A DNA stretch of 64,000 nt from Octopus sinensis (Eukaryota), in contig NC_043012.1 of assembly GCF_006345805.1 (NCBI RefSeq), positions 7,626,001-7,690,000 on the forward strand, given 5' to 3'. This document shows, piece after piece, positions 19,926-60,624 of the stretch (position 1 is the first letter of the stretch; each line of letters begins with the position of its first letter). The notes under the pieces are model-generated. The model made no database searches. It worked only from the letters and a program-made list of their open reading frames with translations, and was not told the origin of the DNA. The translations under genes were made by a program, and so were the position numbers.

Positions 19926-21468
19926 CACATATATAGACTAGGAGGTGGATTTTAAAAAGTCAGTTTTTTGGGGCTTTTTTTTTATAGATATTTCTCATAG
20001 AAAGATCCTTGGCCCAATCAGTCATACTCATGACCCAAAACTCATTGGCTATTTTCTTTGTCTTATGCTCCAGTTCATGTGATTCATATGATAAATGGAG
20101 ACAAATCACTTTGCAAAATATAAGCAACGAAAACAGGAGGGTAAACTAAAGAAAATGAAGTCATTTTGCCATAAATATAATATATATTAGCAAGAGGCAG
20201 TATCAATACTGAGAAGTAATATTTATTCCCACTTGAACGTGAATTTTCTATCAGAACAAACTATACAGCAATGGTTACAATCAGAAGAACTCTCATATGG
20301 GATTTTGGTACAAAATGCACTCTTGTTTATATTGCTAGCAGTGAGACAAATCCCAAGCCCCAAGACTATCAGATCATGTGATTTTGATCTTCCTTTGTCT
20401 TGTCAGTGATGGATAGTTGACTGCTAGAAATAACAGCAACTCCTCTCCTTGCTAGTGATATATCAAATGACAATGCCAGAACAGGTGCTGGTGTCATGAT
20501 TAGCCAATGAGCTTGTTTATATATATATATATATATAATATAGGCACAGGCATAGCTGTGTAATTATGAAGTTTGTTTCACAGTTACATGGTTTAGGGCT
20601 CAACTCCATTGCATGACATCTTGAGCAGGTCTTTTATATAGTCTCAGGCCAACCAAAAGCCTTCTGATGAGTTTAGTAGACTGAAAGAAGCCTGTGCAAC
20701 TATTAATCCAGACATTTTTATTTTATACTCTTTTCGGTTTTTTTCTGTAGAAGAGTGTATGCTCAAAATATCGAAGACATTTCCATTTTTCCTGAATGTC
20801 AAACTAATACACCTTGTTTGTTGTTTCTTCACCTGTATATGTCTTTTGTTTTTTGTGTGCTGTTTTAAACACTGTGTGTGTGTGTGTGTGATTATGACTT
20901 CTTGTCTTGACATCACATATAATATATGGTGATATCAAAAAATTTAAATAACTTTGTATTTCAGATTTTACCTGTAATTAGAGTTGAGATAAAGATTACA
21001 TCCATCCATCCATCTTCTCTACTCACTATTCCTGGGAGGGTTGTTGGGGTAGAATCCTCAGGCATCTCTTCCATAGGGTCCTATCAAAAACAACTATCAT
21101 TAGACTTGCCAGCAATGTTTGCTTGGACAGGATTTGAACTCATAATTAATTACTTCAAAGTATCTTGTCTCCAATATTTTACCAATTCTACCATCTACTC
21201 CTTATTAACCCAAAGGTTAGTTTGACACTGCACCTTACTGGCTTGTATGCATTCTTTCTGTGGGCTCAATGCAGAGCTAATTTGAGATAATAAGAGTGAA
21301 TTTGTACTTGCCTCAGGACAAATATACTTCTATTTATACAGGTAACCAGCATAATTTTATTGGTCAAGAAGTGCTTTTTTTTTTCTTTTCTTTTTTCACC
21401 CAATCAAGTGACAATAAATATAAAGTAGGGAGGGGAAAAAAATGACCATATATCTATCTATCTATCTA

Positions 21469-24892: not shown

Positions 24893-25066
24893 TTAGCCAC
24901 TACACACATTTTTTTCTCTCTTTGTTTTTTCTGTGTCCCTTTCTGTAGAAGAGCATAGGCTTGAAACGTAAAAGACTTTTTTCTATTCCAGAGCATTATA
25001 CTAATACATCTGTTTGTTTTGTACACCACCTGTCTTCGTCTTTTGTTTTTTCGTAAACTCTCCCTA
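24893..25066 (+). mobile_element. ~170-bp hammerhead-bearing repeat unit (family H1)
   Basis: CTTT-CTGTAGA-A-GAGC-ATAG-GCTT-GAAACGT-A-AAAG at 24939-24974; homologous units at ~20715, 34552, 39800, 47110(-) and 53725(-). Confidence 0.7.
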
Positions 25067-25099
25067 TATATATATATATACATACATACATACATACAT

Positions 25100-34551: not shown

Positions 34552-34727
34552 TCGTTAGCTCCTAAACGCATTTTTTTCTCTCCTTGTTTTTTTCTGTGTA
34601 TTTTTCTGCCAAAGAGCGTAGGCTCGAAACGTAAAAGACTTTTTCTATTCCTGAGCGCTATACTAATACATTTGTTTGTTTGTACTCCGCCTGCCTTCGT
34701 CTTTTGTTTATTTTCGTAAACTTTCCC

Positions 34728-34730
<3 letters not shown>
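34552..34730 (+). mobile_element. Family H1 hammerhead-like unit inserted in the central microsatellite of a SINE A (34320-34955, minus strand)
   Basis: TTTT-CTGCCAA-A-GAGC-GTAG-GCTC-GAAACGT-A-AAAG at 34602-34637. Confidence 0.7.
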
Positions 34731-39656: not shown

Positions 39657-40206
39657 TAGGAGTGGCTGTGTGGTAAGTAGCTTGCTTACCAACCACATGG
39701 TTCCAGGTTCAGTCCCACTGTGTAGCACCTTGAGCAAGTGTCTTCTACTATAGCCTCGGGTCGACCAAAGCCTTGTGAGTGGATTTGGTAGATGGAAACG
39801 TATATAGGCTCGAAACGTTAAAGACTTGTTTTATTTATATTTCCTGAGCGCCATACTAATACAATTGTTTTTTTGTATTCCACCTGCCTTCGTCTTTTGT
39901 TTATTTCCGTAAACCTGCCTTTGTCTTTTGTCTATTTTCATAAAGCTTCCCGTTATATATATGTGTGTGTGTGTGTGTGTGTTTGTTTGTATATGTTTGT
40001 ATGTCTGTGTCTGAACCCCCAACATTGCTTGACAATTGATGCTGGTGTGTTTACGTCCCTGTAACTTAGTGGTTCGGCAAAAGAGACTGCTAGAATAAGT
40101 ACTAGGCTTACAAAGAATAAGTCCTGGGGTCGATTTGCTCAACTAAAGGCGGTGCTCCAGCATGACCACAGTCAAATGACTGAAACAAGTAAAAGAGTAA
40201 AAGAGA
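39657..40206 (+). mobile_element. SINE family A interrupted by a 5'-truncated H1 unit (~39800-39952)
   Basis: SINE breaks at GATGGAAAC; insert begins ATAGGCTCGAAACGTTAAAGAC. Confidence 0.85.
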
Positions 40207-43152: not shown

Positions 43153-43173
43153 TATATATATATATATATATAT

Positions 43174-43475
43174 ATATATTAATAAAAGGAATTCCAACCT
43201 TGTCTGATTTTCATGTTTTATTTACAATCTTATAATGATATATTATAAGATAATATAATATAATAGAATAAAATAAAATAAAATAGTAGAATGTTAAATG
43301 TTCATTCTGATTGAACTAGTATTTTCATGCATTAAATTCTGCAATCATCAGGTTCCTGTAGTAGTGGTGACAGTCATGTTTCACAATTTTTGACTGTCAA
43401 TAATAATATATCATTATAAGATTATAAATAAAACGTGAAAATCAGACAAGGTTGGAATTCCTTTTATTAATATAT
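43174..43475 (-). mobile_element. Element with 73-bp terminal inverted repeats enclosing a hammerhead-like motif (H3)
   Basis: IR 43174-43246 / 43403-43475 with two mismatches; minus strand 43355-43313 GAAC-CTGATGA-TTGCA-GAATTTAA-TGCAT-GAAA-ATAC-TA-GTTC. Confidence 0.7.
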
Positions 43476-43789
43476 TCTACTATACACAATCACACACACC
43501 CATATATATATATATATATATATATATATGGAGAGTTTGAGTTATTGCTAGATTGTGGTGTAGAGGAAATATTAATATATACAAGTGTTTTGATAGAATT
43601 GTATAGATGTATTCATAGATTGCGTATTTTTTCAAATGGTGGGTTCAGTCATCATCATCATCATCGTTTAACATCCGCTTTCCATGCTGGCATGGGTTGG
43701 ACGATTTGAGTGAGGACTGGCTAACCAGATGGCTGCACCAGGCTCTAATCTGATCTGGTAGAGTTTCTACAGCTGGATGCCCTTCCTAA

Positions 43790-44320
43790 TGCTGGCAGAA
43801 TCAGTAGCATACTGGACAAACATCCACCTTGGAAGTTCTGAGTTCAAATTCTACTGTGGTCGACTTTGCTTTTCATCCTTTCAGAGTTGATGTGATTGAC
43901 TAGTCCCCTTCACCAAAATCTCAGACCTTGTAACTATAGTAGATAGAGTTGTAGCATGCTGGATGAAGGTCCGCCTTGACGTTCTGAGTTCAAATTCTGC
44001 TGAGGTCAACTTTGCCTTTCATCCTTTCGGTGTTGATAAATTAAGTATCAGTGAAACATTAGTATCGATGTAATCAACTAGTCCCCTTCACCAAAATTTC
44101 AGACCTTGTAACTATAGTAGAAAGAGTTGTTGTTATTATTATTAAGGCAGCGACCTGGCAGAATCAGTAGCATGCTGGATGAAGGTCCGCCTTGACGTTC
44201 TGAGTTCAACTTTGCTTTTCATCCTTTCGGTGTTGATAAATTAAGTATCAGTGAAACATTAGTATCGATGTAATCAACTAGTCCCCCTCCTCCAAAATTT
44301 CAGTCCTTGTGCTTTTAGTA
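43790..44320 (+). mobile_element. Tandem array of three SINE family B units
   Basis: Units 2 and 3 are nearly identical (GTAGCATGCTGGATGAAGGTCCGCCTTGACGTTCTGAGTTCAA...). Confidence 0.85.
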
Positions 44321-44819
44321 GAAAAGTTTATTAGTTATTGGACATATTTCAGAAAACCATCTGTAGTTTGCTCAGTTGTTGTTGAGGTCTACTGAAGGTC
44401 TCTGTCCAAATTTTTGTGCATCAGTGTAAAACCATTACTAAATAAATATACAGAGCTCTGTAAAACCCAACAAGTGTGAATTAAGTATTTGTTCGAGTTT
44501 CACATGGCCAAAACAAGCATGCTCTTTACCTCCACTTATATATAACATATTCATTGTTAATGATGGAAGTAGTATTAGCTCAGAATAGAACTCATTATAT
44601 CTTACTTAGCATGGATATACTGTAGAAAGCCAAAAAAAAAAAACTATGGCATTTCTAAAACCTACGGAAGCATATCAGTAGCAGGTGAAAAGTGTTCAGC
44701 AGTGGTTGTGTAATTGTTAGATCCAGATATTCTTTTATCTATTTCAGTCATTTGATTGTGGCCATGCTGGAGCACCACATTTAGTCGAACAAATCGATCC
44801 CAGGATATGTTCTTTGTAA

Positions 44820-45095
44820 TACAGTTCTGTATTTAAGAGATGAGGAATTATGTACATCATTTACAATTGACGGATATTTGTCCCCAAGATTCCGAGTTCG
44901 ATTCCAGGCAGTGACCTGAATAATAATAATAATAATAATAATGATAACAACATCGTAAAATACCTTAGGAATGAGAACCCAGGTTCGAAATTTCCCTAAG
45001 ACACCTGATGAAGGCTGGAGGGTATATCAGCTGAAACGTGTTAACAACAAACAAGATGAGGACAAATATCCGTCAATTGTAAATAAATGTAAATA
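44820..45095 (+). mobile_element. Insertion with B-box, hammerhead-like motif and inverted end (H4), inside a SINE A (44735-45352, minus strand)
   Basis: 10-bp TSD TTCTTTGTAA (44810-44819 / 45096-45105); 25-bp perfect IR 44859-44883 / 45060-45084; GTTCGATTCC at 44896-44905; ACAC-CTGATGA-A-GGCTG...CAGCT-GAAAC-GTGT at 45001-45041. Confidence 0.8.
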
Positions 45096-46111
45096 TTCTT
45101 TGTAAGCCTAGTACTTATTCTGTTGGTCTCTTTTGCCGAACCACTAAGTTACAGGGGCATAACACATAAGTTGGGGGATAAACACACACACATATATAGA
45201 CAGGCTTCTTTCATTTTCCGTCTCCCAAATCCACTCACAAGGCTTTGGTCAGCCCGAGGCTATAGAAGAAGACAGTTGCCCATGGTGCCACACAGTGGGA
45301 CTGAACCCAGAGCCATGTGGTTCGTAAGCAAGCTACTTACCACTCAGCCACATAATTTTTTTTTTTTTTTTTTTTTTGTTCTTTCATTTATTCAAAACAT
45401 ATTCTTGTTTCCTAGCAAAGCTGCTGCAACTGCAGTGTGAAGTACTCTGAGTAGTGACTCATGCATATGAGGCTTTGCATCAATATTGCTATTGTACTCT
45501 ATCCAGAATTATTGAGTACCCTTTTTTTATGTAGTTTACACAAGTGTGAAATTACCACACTTTATTTGTGTGTATTTGTAGTGTAACATATGTTTGAAAT
45601 GTTGAAATTTCAAACATATAACATAACAAGCAAGTTTGAATTAGGGGTAAAAAAACTCAAAGAAGTTACATTGTATTTTTTACTAAGAAACAGAAAGCTG
45701 GCATCTGAAGTATTCAAGAGATAGATGAACACAGATAGCCATACATATAGATGAGAGACAGCAGGGGACACACAGCAAGACTTTAAACTGGACACCAACA
45801 GATTTATTGTGAAGATTAAAAACCAATCAGTAATTTACACCAAAAATTCTGTCGTTAAATCAATTCGAAATAACTAACTTGACTTTGTAGATTATTGAAA
45901 GCATCGGTCAATATTATACAGTCTGTGATGGGGTACCAATGTTACTCATTAATTCAGATAAATGATTGTATTTGAAATGATGAGATAGTGAGCTGGTGTA
46001 GAATGAAGCTAACAAACCACTAATAAGTACTACAATATAATATGAGGGACCAGAGAAGTGATGAGGGAGTCTGGAGTGCCTGTCTTAAAGTGGCATCTCA
46101 CCAGTTTGTCT

Positions 46112-49198: not shown

Positions 49199-50422
49199 CA
49201 GGGGTTGGACAAAATAATGGAAACACCTTAAAATTTCAAACAAATTTATTTTAATACGGGGTAGGACTGCTTTTGGCAGTAATTGCAGTTTGAATTCTAC
49301 AAGGTATGGACTCATACAAAGTTTGAATTGTTTCCAAAGGAATTTTTGTCCATTCTCCGGCTAAAACAGTCTCCAGTTCTTGTGGTGATGATGGTGGAGG
49401 ATATTGACTCCTTACTTGTTTTTCTAAAATGCGCCATAAATGTTCAATGGTATTGAGATCTGGGGACTATGGTGGCCAAATAAGATTAGAATGTTCTTCG
49501 TGCCATTCACTAACAACTTTAGTTGTGTGAATTGGTGCATTATCATCCTGAAAGATTGCATTTCCCTCCAGAAACAATTCCACAACTATAGGATGAATTT
49601 CATCTGATAAAATGCTTAAATAGTCTTGACTGTTAATTCTGCCATGAAAGGAAACCATTGGGCTGGCTGATTTCCAAGATATAGCCATCACAGATCCTCT
49701 ATGTTTAACACTTGGAAGAAGGCAGTCTGGGTCAAATGCTTCTTTTGACAGTCTCTACATGAATACTCAGCTGGTGGTCAGAAATAAGATAAAAAAGATT
49801 ACTTGTCCAAGAAATTAACATTCTTCCACTGCTCTAGGGACCAATTCTGTAGGTTTTTACTCCACTCTAAACACTTTGCAGCGTTTGTTTTTGAAAGTAG
49901 TAGTTTTCTGATTGCAGCCCTCCCGTGTGAAGCTCCTGGTGAACAGTTTTTGTGGAAACTGGGTTCTTGAGGTGCAGTAATTTTGGGAGCTGTACTTTTG
50001 TGATCCTTTCTAACAATTTGAGTAAGAGTCCGACAGTCCCTATCTGAAAGTTTTGGTTTTCTTGCAGCGTTTTGTTTTGACGAGGAGGTTTTCCCTCTTT
50101 CTCAAAGGCTGTCTCATAACTTTCGAGACAGTACTTCTTGCTACACCAAACATTTCAGCTGTTTTCATTATGCTGCGCCTGCCAAATGACCACCAACAAT
50201 TTGACCTCTTTGAAAGTCCAATAGATCTGTCGTTTTAGCGAATTTTAATTAACTTTTGCTGACGATATCTGAAAAGAAAGAGCAATTTTAGTAAAACATA
50301 TTAAGCAACACTAACGATAAATCAAAAAACAAATATAAACAGGCTTTTGACAGTTTTATAGATATTTCAAAATTATGATACTGTGATGCTAGGCGTTTCC
50401 ATTATTTTTTGTCCAACCCCTG
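49199..50422 (-). mobile_element. Tc1/mariner (Tc1 type) DNA transposon, full-length, transposase inactivated
   Basis: TIRs CAGGGGTTGGACAAAATAATGGAAACACCT / AGGCGTTTCCATTATTTTTTGTCCAACCCCTG with left TA; peptides DFQRGQIVG, FQDDNAPIH, WPP*SPDLNTIEHLW, PTPY*. Confidence 0.92.
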
Positions 50423-51880: not shown

Positions 51881-53724
51881 ACATGTATATCTTTTTACAT
51901 ATTTCTGTCTTTCTATTTGTGAACATATGTAAATTAAAGTGTATTTGTTACTATTTACCTCTCTATATAATATTAACACCATCATCATTGTTTCAGCATC
52001 TTTTCCATGCTTACATGGAAATGATTCGTTAAGGCACATATTCTACAGCAGTATGTTCTCCTGTCACCAGATCTCCCCCATTTCTAAGCAAGGTGATATT
52101 TTCCCTAGTTTAGATATGTTTCCACAGGAGATTTCAAATTACAAACAGCACTTGTGAAAGTATTACTTCGGTGGATAAAAGAATATGATACACATGGCCG
52201 TGTGGTCAAGAAGCTTGCTTTGCAACCATGAAGTTTTGGGATCATTTCCAAATGTGGTACTTTGGGCAAGTGTCCTTGTGAGTGGATTTGGTAGGTGGAA
52301 ACTGAAAGAAGCCTGTTTTGTGTGTGTGTTTATATAAATATATATATATCACAGGCATGTGTGTACATGTGTATCTTTGTGGTTCAACAAGAGTCTGATA
52401 GAATAAGTACTGAGCTTTAAAATAAAAAAAGTACTGGGGTTAATTCATTTGACTAAAAATTCTTCAAGGTGGTGCTCCAGCATGGCCACAGTTTAATGAT
52501 CGAAACAAGTAAAAGAATATATATGTGTTTGTGTGTGTGCACCCCTGTTTTGACACCACATGTTGGGATAGTTGTAAATAAACATCGTCATACAAGCAAT
52601 GTCGGTCATTTCCAGTCTCCTGTCAAACATGTCTGACCATGGGGAAATATTACCTTACTTGGAAACATGTGGCTGACAACAAGAAAGGCGTCCAGCTGTA
52701 GAAAATCTATCCCAACAAATCTTGTTTGACCCTTGTAAGCATGGAAAAGTGGATGTTTAAAAAAGTAATCTTTTACATGTAAATTTAGTACATTTATTTC
52801 AGTGTGTGTGTCTGTGTGTTTGTGTGCGCATTTCAGTGCAGTGACTGACAGACACGCCAGTCCTAAAACAGTAGCTGTTTAGGAAATGTACACCAAGTGT
52901 ATATGTTGCCACCCCTATATATATTCATTGTACAAACTTACTCTGCTGTGTTAACTCTTGATAGCCACACCCAAACAAACATGTCTGTACAATTCTTCTA
53001 ATGCTTCTCATTAGAGTCTCAAATGTCTCTGTTAAATATTGAAATTTATATACACATGTTTATTTATTACGTATAATCGTTTCCTTAAAAGAAGCCATGT
53101 AGCCTCTCTGTATGGTTTGACCCCATGATATAGACTGTGTAGAAGTATCTGGAAGATTTAGAAACTTGAGATATGCGTTAGGATTCCAGACATGAGAAAG
53201 CCATACCAGCAGAGAGAATAACCGTATTTACTTGTGTATAATGCAAGAAATTTAATACAAAGCATCAGTGTCTAAAAGGAAGAGGTAGCATTATACTTGG
53301 GCTTAGAAAAAGAAAAATCAAGGATAAAATATGTTAATGACTTTAGGTGCAAAATATGACTGTGGTGTTGCTGCTTGTATTCACCATCATCATCATCATC
53401 ATCATTATTTTACATTTGCTTTTTTCTTACTGGCAAAGGTTGGGTGGGTCACCACAGTTTGAGACATTTATTATTGGAAGCTATTGCTCTTAAAACCCTG
53501 GTAATTTTATCATATTTTTCTAAGATGGCAAAATCGTTAGCATGCTGGGCAAAATGCTTAGTGGTATTTCATCTGTCTTCGTGTTCTGAGTTCAAATTCT
53601 GCTAGGGTCAGCTTTACCTTTCATCCATTTGGGGGCTAATAAAATAAGTATCAGTTGAGTCTTGGGGTCAGTGTAATCAACTTAACCCATTCCTCAAAAC
53701 TGCTGGCCTTGTGCCAAAATTTGA

Positions 53725-53896
53725 AACAAAAGACGAAGACAGGTGAGAGAACAACAAGCAGGTGTATTAGTTTAACACTCAGGAAGAATGGAAAAGTCTT
53801 TGACATTTCAAGCCTATGCTCTTTGACAGAAAGGATTGAGAAGGAAAAAAATGGAGAGAGAATGAGAAAAAATGTATAAGGATTAACAGTTCAACA

Positions 53897-57012: not shown

Positions 57013-57110
57013 GTATGTATATATATGTAGATGTGTATATATATATAAATATACATACATATGTATATGTATATATATACACACACCCATATATATATAT
57101 ATACATACAT

Positions 57111-58285: not shown

Positions 58286-60624
58286 ATATATATATAAATA
58301 AAAGAGAGACAAATGTATGTTCCTCTTACAACTCTATTCATAGAGTTTCTGTATGTCTCTGACTGTACAATATCTTGCAGCACACACACAATTCTCACTC
58401 AATGTCTGTTCATAATACCAAAAGTAACCAAGGCTGCTAAAAGCTCATTAGCAACTAATTACTCTTGTTACTTGAGATGCAAAAAGTGCAGTGAAGTGAA
58501 GTAAATAAGCTTACAACATCAGTTGACTTTGAGTTAGTATAATTTAACATTGATCATGTTTCATTTGGCAAGACATCCTACCCATGACTGTTCCATCTTT
58601 TTCTTTTTTTTTTTTTACCAGACATAATATTTCTAGAACTACTTTATCCAATGTGTTCAATTTTTAAATAGTAGGATGCAATTTCGAAGCTGTTTCGCTG
58701 CTATTTCTAGCAAGTGACAACATAGATCAATGGTTTCTAACCATTTCACTACCAAGGGCCCTGTATCTCCTCAAAGCACTTTTTTTGTCTCTCTTTCCTA
58801 CATAAGTCTTTCTACCCTTGTGCAAAGTTAGTCCCCTCGATACAGTATGCCACCCACCCAGTCCAGGAAGGGGTCTTGTGAGTTACTTGGTGACCCCACT
58901 CATAGTGGTGGTGCCATGAAAAAAAGCAACCTAGGCATTAGGGAGGGCATCGAGTTATAGAAATCTTGCCAAAGTAGACAATGGATACCGGCATAGCCCT
59001 CAGGTTAGTTGGATCTTGTCAAACTGTCCAACCCATGCCAGCATGGAACACAGATGTTAAATGATTATGATGATAATGCCTCCCACTGAAATTAATTTTC
59101 CTGATAGACCAACTCCAACAAGGTCTTGAAAGATTTGTCTATTCAACAAATTTTGAATTCAGCTTACAGCCCCCTGTCTTTGTGCACACCCTAGAGATCT
59201 GTGGGTTCCAGGTTAGGAATCAGGGCACAGAGGCTCCCAAATTGCTTCAGTTACATACTACTATTGTGACAAGAAACTTGTAACTCCATTCCCTTTTATT
59301 TATAACTAGCTTAAAAGCCACACTCCACACTTTTTAAGCTAGCTCCTGTAGAGGGTTGATTGGGCCTGCAGCCCCAAACTAAAGAGAGCAATAATAATAT
59401 AGTGTTCATTGGTGTCCTACCAATATGGTATCACTTTAAATTCGGTTTAAATGAAAAACTTGTAAGTTCACAAATTTTTGGAGTTCTTTTAAAATTTGAA
59501 TTTTCAACTGTTAAGATTTCAAAAGTTTGTATATTTTTAGAATGACATTGTAGGGTAGGTATGAGATTTTGGATCTGGTGAGTGTTAGCCTGAAACAGGC
59601 TAACATCCAGTTGTAGAAATCTTGCCAAAGCATTATATATATATATATAATTGAAAAACTTGGAGTCAACAAGAAGGGGTTACAGGGACAATATTTACAT
59701 ATCGCCTGAGGAAACACAACTAGACCTCATAATGCAGGGAAACAGTTGTATAATCAAGTATCCAGCTGTACCCCTTCTTGTTGATTCCAATGTTTTCAAT
59801 TATATATTCGCACACAACAGCTGCCCAAATGCAAACCTGAAAGTACGTGTAATACTACTACTGGGGAGCACAGGGTAAATCTAAAAGTGGACAAGCTTTA
59901 TACTGTACTCTACTATGTTCTTAACAGAACATATATATATATGCATGCAAGGCTTCTTTTGGTTTCCATCTACCAAATCCACTTTGTGAGACTTTATTCA
60001 CCCAAGATGCTGCAGGGTGGAACTGAACCCAAAACCACATGGTTGGGAAGTAAGCTTCTCAATCACACCAGCACCTAGGTCTGCATAAGTAAAAGATGGA
60101 ATGGTTATAGAAGGAACGTTTGCGATCATAGGTCTGCTGGATCGAGGTTGACCTGGGGTTAAACAGCTATAGCAACCAGCCTGTGATTTACTGGCTGAAC
60201 AAGGAATCTCTACCCAGTCACTCATTCTGCTGAATACAAAAATCAAATCACTCTTGAATCACACCTTCCCATCTTAATTACAGTAGTTTCCTGGTATCCA
60301 TAGAAAGGTGTGATGGTCATGGTGGAAAGATGTTTGATGATGCCTGTTATATTAGGACTTGGCTACAGTTAAACAACAACAGTGGCCTCCTAATAGACAG
60401 CTTAAAGCTTTTTAAAACGATGGGAAATAACATGGAAATCATGCTTGAAATTCTATAGCATTAGAGCCTGTCTGTCTGTGTGTCTATATGTGTACAAGAC
60501 TGATTTAATAATGATATGATACTAATTAAAATGAAGAATTACACAGATTTGGAATGTTTGAGTAATTAATCAGCAGTTATCAAGCAAGTTTGGTTATTTA
60601 TTCATATCTACACACACACACACA

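What the first reader, a model, noticed from the sequence alone, without database searches (positions are those of the whole stretch)
43174..43475. MITE-like foldback element that encloses a hammerhead
Seen: 73-bp inverted arms (two mismatches) in a (TA)n tract flank a minus-strand motif GAAC-CTGATGA-(T)TGCA..TGCA(T)-GAAA-ATAC-TA-GTTC. Stem III is one change away from the palindrome AGTACT. A second hairpin (TGACAGTCA/TGACTGTCA) lies at ~43368-43399. Standard tools would probably call this a DNA MITE, but the ribozyme suggests an inverted Penelope pseudo-LTR insertion.
Basis: partly seen in the sequence, partly recalled or inferred. Interest (0 to 1): 0.7.

Follow-up and report, generated by a model that had tools for sequence, protein, structure and literature searches.

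The report
Penelope retrotransposon scar posing as MITE
A 300-base stretch of animal DNA holds one hammerhead-ribozyme motif between two inverted arms and is likely a heavily shortened Penelope-type retrotransposon insertion rather than a DNA transposon, a known layout that structure-based transposon finders would likely mislabel.

Summary
Observation mostly confirmed: 73-nt arms (2 mismatches), the minus-strand hammerhead motif (43313-43355; 1 of 20,000 shuffles) and the 9-bp hairpin are there. Only the left end touches (TA)n; the right end has 26 extra nt first. No second copy of this family was reachable, so the evidence is architectural. (1) The U·U-closed core occurs in 14 of 25 published Hydra-clade Penelope-like (PLE) hammerheads. 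(2) A scan for that core found an unrelated PLE family with the same layout: arms of 65 and 147 nt, a shared 61-nt one-sided tail, a junction palindrome, (TA)n ends and an RT-like ORF. (3) A second hammerhead-core fold-back 1.3 kb away has a 12-nt target duplication and a 29-nt one-sided tail. The arms do not match the window's Tc1 element. Best reading (0.8): a head-to-head pair of 5'-truncated PLE 3' ends in (TA)n. The second hairpin is likely a junction scar, and the ribozyme a passenger predicted to cleave poorly. The layout is known; the family seems uncatalogued in what I could search. Interest is low to moderate.

The parts
43153..43179 (.). (TA)13.5 tract abutting the 3' end of the main copy; likely insertion target
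   Evidence: TRF; sequence
43174..43246 (-). Left arm = 3' end of the main (hammerhead-bearing) copy; outer 6 nt shared with the TA tract
43250..43285 (-). AT-rich low-complexity stretch between ribozyme and arm
43300..43316 (-). Predicted competing hairpin that takes the 3' strand of hammerhead stem I
   Evidence: fold; coordinates
43313..43355 (-). Type I hammerhead motif: stem I GAAC/GTTC, core CTGATGA (43351-43345), U·U-closed 4-bp stem II (43344-43327), GAAA, 6-nt non-palindromic stem III, predicted cut after CUA
   Evidence: shuffle control; no Rfam match
43368..43399 (.). 9-bp hairpin, 14-nt loop, 3 nt from the inner end of the right arm; likely junction palindrome at the 5'-truncation point
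   Evidence: analogue in L034
43403..43475 (+). Right arm = inverted, more heavily 5'-truncated copy of the same 3' end
43476..43501 (+). 26-nt AC-rich extension on one end only; candidate PLE 'tail' (its CA-rich end could be host microsatellite)
43502..43529 (.). (AT)14 tract; likely the other half of the target
   Evidence: TRF

Best explanation
This 0.3-kb fold-back is likely a single, heavily 5'-truncated insertion made by a Penelope-like retrotransposon (PLE) system: two partial copies of the same 3' end sit head to head between TA repeats, and only the longer one reaches the hammerhead motif. Shown by the sequence: a 223-nt copy on the minus strand (43402-43180) carries the hammerhead and ends at (TA)n; a 73-nt inverted copy on the plus strand continues 26 nt further before (AT)n; a 9-bp palindrome lies 3 nt from their junction. 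Inferred from PLE biochemistry (PMC11167929): the GIY-YIG endonuclease cut both strands of a TA tract, the RT extended both 3' ends from two start sites about 26 nt apart on the element RNA (giving the one-sided tail), both cDNAs stopped early, and their ends were joined after a short snap-back. The hammerhead is then a passenger from the parent's terminal repeat. It is predicted to cleave poorly here (no stable stem III, no palindrome for dimer rescue, competing hairpin). The copy itself is likely immobile. Whether the parent was an autonomous PLE or a non-autonomous PLE-mobilised element cannot be told.
For: Hammerhead beyond chance and oriented towards a (TA)n-abutting end, 172 nt from core start to TA run. 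U·U-closed core in 14 of 25 Hydra-clade PLE families, and identical CTGATGATTGC...GCATGAAA in 7 of 25 (counted by eye, supplement of PMC8557442); almost all Hydra families insert in (TA)n. Core scan of genome contigs: 89 loci, 13 with stem I >=4, 9 of them with Hydra-type stem III spacing (8 contigs of assembly CBDDTI01 plus L072); 7 of these 9 have a TA run within 200 nt downstream. Within one of those families: L034 = 65-nt arms around one hammerhead, 18-bp junction palindrome, 61-nt tail on the inverted copy only; L077 = 147-nt arms, same tail; L040 = same 3' end joined to an RT/endonuclease-like ORF. That ORF has YRDDG and is 38 of 63 identical, by eye, to a stretch of Hydra-1_Amil shown; Atlas neighbours carry HTH_animal/GIY-YIG in 17-76% of members (query L072). 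Same genome: 44820-45093 is a hammerhead-core fold-back inside a SINE with a 12-nt duplication (11/12), 39-nt arms and a 29-nt one-sided tail. 3 of 4 short fold-backs in the window enclose CTGANGA..GAAA, against 3.1% of 160-nt windows. Inverted 5'-truncated copies, 30-40-nt tails and junction palindromes are described PLE traits.
Against: No second copy of this family: none in the window, none for a 22-nt arm motif in genome contigs, none in plasmids, none of the short motifs in the supplements searched. The analogue families share only the core; downstream sequence shows no significant similarity (p 0.06-0.72, 5 of 5 tests; blastn only TA hits). The core match in those loci is by construction. 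4 of the other 80 loci also form a stem I >=4 (G-U allowed) by chance. In the Hydra register this motif breaks stem I, so it is not a typical Hydra hammerhead. No Rfam match. Pfam gave no RT or GIY-YIG hit for the analogue ORFs or 7 of their relatives. The tail is 26 nt (30-40 described), and CACACCC(AT)n also occurs at 57082 and CA repeats precede 7 of 94 (AT)5+ runs, so part of it may be host. No target duplication can be read inside TA repeats. The third fold-back's core has no stems. Only 2 of 9 analogue loci are fold-backs.
Confidence: 0.8

Rival explanations
1. An ordinary DNA MITE (about 67-nt TIRs, TA or TTAA target) whose spacer happens to hold a captured or chance hammerhead.
For: Near-perfect TIR-like arms, about 300 nt, TA and TTAA at both outer ends. 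TIR elements are as abundant as PLEs in O. vulgaris (6.8% each).
Against: No other copy in 64 kb, while SINEs have about 10. Arms do not match the window's Tc1-like TIR (best 11 nt). Ends lack the CAG (Tc1/mariner) and CCC (piggyBac) starts (recalled definitions). Asymmetric flanks. Hammerhead very unlikely by chance. The same layout arises with variable arms in a PLE family.
Confidence: 0.06
2. A solo PLE 3' end inserted first, and the inverted arm arose later by host DNA repair or replication template switching at the TA tract.
For: Long TA tracts on both sides and a junction palindrome also fit snap-back repair (own knowledge). Only one copy is seen.
Against: In the analogues the inverted copy carries element sequence that the forward copy lacks (same 61-nt tail in L034 and L077; 29-nt tail at 44820-44848). 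Local duplication cannot supply that. For this element the 26-nt extension is not proven to be element sequence.
Confidence: 0.07
3. A PLE-born fold-back that became fixed and now spreads as a unit, copied in trans by a PLE RT or adopted by a DDE transposase.
For: PLE terminal repeats alone can mobilise enclosed sequence in trans (PMC3846280 passage). Arms are 97% identical.
Against: No second copy. Analogue fold-backs differ in junction from copy to copy.
Confidence: 0.05
4. Assembly or amplification artefact (chimeric fold-back read).
For: Inverted repeats beside microsatellites are hard to assemble (PMC8557442 passage).
Against: The arms differ at two positions, the spacer is unique and structured, and a similar fold-back nearby has a target duplication.
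Confidence: 0.02

Closest known systems
Inverted-repeat insertions of endonuclease-bearing PLEs (Fig. 2 legend and text of PMC8557442; Pen2a_Av and relatives in PMC3846280)
   Same: Inverted 5'-truncated copy at the 5' end, extension on one end only, palindrome at the inverted junction, microsatellite target that hides the duplication.
   Different: Here both copies are so short that no ORF or direct pLTR remains, which gives a MITE-sized unit. The extension is 26 nt rather than 30-40.
Hydra-clade PLEs (Penelope-n_HM, Hydra-1_Obim and others; PMC8557442)
   Same: U·U-closed hammerhead core (14 of 25 families), (TA)n target, ribozyme near the 3' end; Penelope-13_HM is noted with a 5'-truncated inverted copy.
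   Different: Stem III is 6 nt with the cut after CUA, against 9-10 nt in the Hydra table. The Hydra-1_Obim hammerhead row differs in sequence. No protein to test.
Minimal metazoan PLE hammerheads (PMC4209133)
   Same: Type I, short helix I, vestigial helix III, solitary genomic copies attributed to truncated PLEs, and pairs on opposite strands 100-700 bp apart.
   Different: Lacks the usual G10.1-C11.1 pair, and helix III is not palindromic in this copy.
DNA MITEs (definition in PMC8969392)
   Same: Short, non-coding, flanked by inverted repeats.
   Different: No copy family seen, no link to a transposase, asymmetric ends, internal ribozyme motif.
Non-LTR retrozymes (bioRxiv 10.64898/2026.07.22.740005)
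   Same: Non-coding, type I hammerhead, PLE-derived.
   Different: Those are head-to-tail tandem units with two or more hammerheads; this has one hammerhead and inverted arms.

Membership tests
Truncated PLE insertion | Hammerhead motif near the 3' end, sense towards that end | tested here: met
Truncated PLE insertion | Inverted 5'-truncated copy joined head to head | tested here: met
   (which copy is sense is inferred from the hammerhead strand)
Truncated PLE insertion | 30-40-nt tail on one end only | tested here: inconclusive
   26-nt one-sided extension; may be partly host CA repeat
Truncated PLE insertion | Palindrome at the inverted junction | tested here: met
   9 bp, 3 nt from the arm; 3 of 2000 shuffles; trait described
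Truncated PLE insertion | AT-rich or (TA)n target | tested here: met
Truncated PLE insertion | Homology to a parent with RT and GIY-YIG ORF; variable truncation among copies | not testable with these tools
   No host genome collection; about 50 nt remain upstream of the ribozyme. Seen only in an unrelated analogue family.
Hydra-clade PLE | U·U-closed hammerhead core (common in the clade; exclusivity not established) | tested here: met
Hydra-clade PLE | Canonical hammerhead with 3-4-bp stem III and paired stem I in that register | tested here: not met
   In the Hydra register 3 of 4 stem III pairs form but 3 of 4 stem I pairs fail; energy +4.0 vs -5.1 kcal/mol. Not filed as Hydra.
Hydra-clade PLE | RWK, DKT, CxCX5C motifs; no CCHH | not testable with these tools
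   No coding sequence in this copy
Type I hammerhead ribozyme | Core CUGANGA / GAAA / UH with stems I and II | tested here: met
Type I hammerhead ribozyme | Stable or palindromic stem III | tested here: not met
   Self-duplex +1.2 kcal/mol vs -10.6 and -6.0 for the two nearest palindromes
Type I hammerhead ribozyme | Score above an Rfam hammerhead model | tested here: not met
Type I hammerhead ribozyme | Self-cleavage | not testable with these tools
   needs in vitro assay
DNA MITE | Terminal inverted repeats around a short non-coding spacer | tested here: met
DNA MITE | TIRs shared with a DDE transposon | tested here: inconclusive
   No match to the single Tc1-like element in the window; rest of the genome not available
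DNA MITE | Many copies of constant size and ends | tested here: inconclusive
   0 further copies in 64 kb; genome not available
DNA MITE | Superfamily-specific duplication and terminal motif | tested here: not met
   TA/TTAA present but no CAG or CCC start (definitions recalled; sequence; the window's Tc1 starts TA|CAG)
Non-LTR retrozyme | Two or more tandem units each with a hammerhead | tested here: not met
   definition

The most novel reading that the evidence does not exclude
A Penelope-made fold-back has become a fixed, self-contained mobile unit, a 'MITE born from a retrotransposon' with a register-shifted hammerhead, now spreading whole in an octopus genome. A weaker and likelier form (my estimate about 0.3): many single-copy octopus 'MITEs' (65 families with 65 insertions among recently active elements, PMC13282606) are such PLE fold-backs and record both-strand priming and the two RT start sites in vivo.
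Probability: 0.05. Interest if true: 0.65.

Novelty: new member of a known kind. Interest (0 to 1): 0.27.

Why it matters
If right, it is a compact genomic record of the PLE insertion reaction: both target strands extended, two start sites, head-to-head joining. Two or three such fold-backs in 17 kb suggest they are common in this genome. They would be easy to mine for tail lengths and junction rules, which bear on the unresolved later steps of PLE retrotransposition (PMC11167929). Practically, a hammerhead core plus a one-sided tail is a simple filter against calling these MITEs. The layout itself is long known, so a PLE specialist would not be surprised.

Tried and rejected
Rfam, whole window and 171-nt region: no hammerhead family, only microsatellite- or hairpin-driven miRNA/snoRNA noise. 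Motif searches in supplements of PMC8557442 and PMC13282606: no match to this element; line breaks can hide short motifs, Repbase sequences are not included, and the O. vulgaris repeat library is not in the supplement held. Pfam on analogue ORFs and 7 of 120 listed relatives: no RT or GIY-YIG hit. Homology of the element's 3' part to analogue families: not significant. Similarity to the 59643-59807 fold-back: p=0.002 around the 3' half of the core and p=0.095 at the ends, but the unrelated 45005 element also scored p=0.002 on AT-rich sequence, so it is left as a lead. Hydra-type stem III register: rejected because stem I fails. The covariation comes mostly from the 7 analogue rows, whose core columns are fixed by the search pattern, so it is not support for the window copy; only pair 22-31 (A-U here, U-A or C-G in others) is independent. 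L049's ORF belongs to a neighbouring copy and was not counted. L015, L020, L070, L081 were inspected and dropped as chance matches in bacterial DNA; L017, L043, L071, L076 pass the stem I filter but were treated as chance from flanks alone. My note that the 34625/39811 repeats are the same family as 24753 was not borne out.

Full report
Setting. The window is AT-rich animal DNA full of microsatellites and SINE copies. A translation of one SINE hits a single named protein, from Octopus vulgaris (93% over 39% of the query), so an octopus host is likely. No animal genome collection was available, so copies of the element could not be collected directly.

The observation. The motif is the only descriptor hit in 64 kb, against 0.005-0.08 expected, and 1 of 20,000 spacer shuffles hits. 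Two points need correcting. The flanks are asymmetric: the left arm runs into (TA)13.5, while the right arm is followed by 26 nt before (AT)14. And being one change from a palindrome is expected about half the time. Rfam has no match.

The ribozyme. The U·U-closed core is in 14 of 25 Hydra-clade PLE families in the supplement table of PMC8557442, 7 of them with identical 11- and 8-nt core flanks (by eye). Those ribozymes have a longer stem III. The window motif aligns to that type without gaps and forms 3 of 4 stem III pairs, but then loses stem I, and that register is energetically worse. So it works like a minimal PLE hammerhead and resembles the Hydra type, but I do not file it in the Hydra clade. 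Folding gives stem I a probability of 0.13 or less, with a competing hairpin downstream, and the stem III self-duplex is unstable. Minimal PLE hammerheads cleave poorly in vitro and not as monomers (PMC4209133), and the Anolis one needs protein and is dispensable for insertion (PMC11167929). I therefore predict little activity from this copy.

A stand-in family. Scanning genome contigs for the shared core gave 89 loci. 13 form a stem I of 4 or more pairs; 9 of them have Hydra-type spacing (8 contigs of assembly CBDDTI01, plus L072), and 7 of those 9 have a TA run within 200 nt downstream. They are not homologous to the window element outside the core. Three belong to one family. L040 runs from an ORF with YRDDG and a Cys-rich linker through the hammerhead to (TA)n; the ORF is 38 of 63 identical by eye to a Hydra-1_Amil stretch, although Pfam gives no RT or GIY-YIG hit and the Atlas gives only leads. 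L034 is a fold-back between TA tracts with 65-nt arms, one hammerhead, an 18-bp palindrome at the junction and a 61-nt tail on the inverted copy only. L077 has 147-nt arms, a hammerhead in each, a different junction and the same tail. Only 2 of the 9 loci are fold-backs, and several are cut by contig ends.

The same genome. Four short fold-backs (arms >=25 nt, >=85%, span <=500) exist in the window; three enclose CTGANGA..GAAA, against 3.1% of 160-nt windows; the fourth is two facing SINEs. The one at 44820-45093 interrupts a SINE whose empty site is seen in nine other copies, with a 12-nt duplication (11/12), 39-nt arms and a 29-nt extension on the inverted copy only. That matches the A. vaga description of a 9-10-bp duplication and a 31-bp tail (PMC3846280). 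The one at 59643-59807 has a core without stems and is only suggestive.

The DNA-transposon alternative. The window's own Tc1-like element (weak Pfam hits) has TIRs starting TA|CAG at 49199 and 50422 that do not match the arms. No further copy of the fold-back exists in 64 kb. TA and TTAA do flank the arms, so a duplication cannot be excluded, and TIR elements are as abundant as PLEs in O. vulgaris (6.8% each; annotated MITEs only 186 kb).

Mechanism. Shown: two unequal copies of one 3' end, head to head, 3' ends facing TA repeats, one with a 26-nt extension, and a palindrome at the joint. Established elsewhere: a PLE protein cuts AT-rich DNA, extends both strands and starts at two internal sites that bound the tail (PMC11167929); inverted truncated copies, tails and junction palindromes are typical. 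Inferred: both strands of a TA tract were primed, the cDNAs stopped after about 223 and about 100 nt, and a snap-back preceded joining. PMC3846280 instead explains junction palindromes by self-priming on an antisense template; this copy cannot separate the two. The tail assignment is the weakest step, because CACACCC(AT)n also occurs at 57082.

Novelty. The layout is in print. Searches showed no listing that describes this family or PLE fold-backs mislabelled as MITEs; I saw only listings for most hits, and subscription papers and Repbase are not covered. Papers seen: PMC8557442 passages, section 11, supplement parts 2 and 52 of 59 and motif searches; PMC11167929 parts 1-2 of 4; PMC4209133 parts 1-2 of 4 and a supplement search; PMC3846280 and PMC8969392 passages; PMC13282606 part 1 of 3, passages and its whole held supplement (no repeat library in it); bioRxiv 10.64898/2026.07.22.740005 part 1 of 5 (supplements closed). 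MITE superfamily end motifs are recalled.

Verdict. Truncated inverted PLE insertion, confidence 0.8; new member of a known kind; interest 0.27.

Noticed in passing
window 44808-45105: Second hammerhead-core fold-back (insert 44820-45093, core at +45005) inside a SINE: 12-nt target duplication, 39-nt arms, 29-nt one-sided tail, an (AAT)n run and a tRNA B-box-like motif (recalled) inside; looks like a non-autonomous PLE-mobilised element. Its cleavage-site side is short by about 2 nt.
   Followed up: yes
window 59643-59807: Third fold-back: 43-nt arms (91%), (TA)n on the left, CTGAGGA..GAAA on the plus strand without stems; weak collinear similarity to the main element around GAAA.
   Followed up: partly
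window 24753, 13491 (+): Further minimal-hammerhead-like cores; 24753 has a stem II and its repeat ends in a short TA run. No inverted arms found within 700 nt.
   Followed up: partly
window 34619-34729, 39805-39960, 24955-25075, 53724-53817, 20785-20854: A repeat family starting at about GCTCGAAACG (3' half of a hammerhead) and, in two copies inspected, ending in (TA)n; likely 5'-truncated PLE ends.
   Followed up: partly
window 49199-50422 (-): Decayed Tc1/mariner-like element with TA|CAG-type TIRs and transposase remnants (weak DDE_3 and HTH_Tnp_Tc3_2 hits).
   Followed up: partly
L009, L018, L034, L040, L046, L049, L051, L077 (CBDDTI01 contigs); L072 (JAAEPJ010000185.1): Animal-like, microsatellite-rich DNA with Hydra-type PLEs inside assemblies listed as bacterial genomes; likely host contamination of metagenome bins in the collection.
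   Followed up: partly
L051:1-62 (hammerhead orientation): 27-bp palindrome at the 5'-truncated end of a PLE ORF; it sits at the contig edge, so it may be an assembly effect.
   Followed up: no
L049:1320-1670 (hammerhead orientation): One PLE 3' end with its own hammerhead and TA run is directly followed by a second, different hammerhead unit: serial insertion into the same TA tract.
   Followed up: no
PMC13282606 Table 1: Recently active O. vulgaris 'MITEs' are 65 families with 65 insertions, i.e. all single copies, as one-off fold-backs would be.
   Followed up: no
window 43790-44200: Imperfect direct repeats of 40-64 nt with 146-216-nt spacing just downstream of the element.
   Followed up: no
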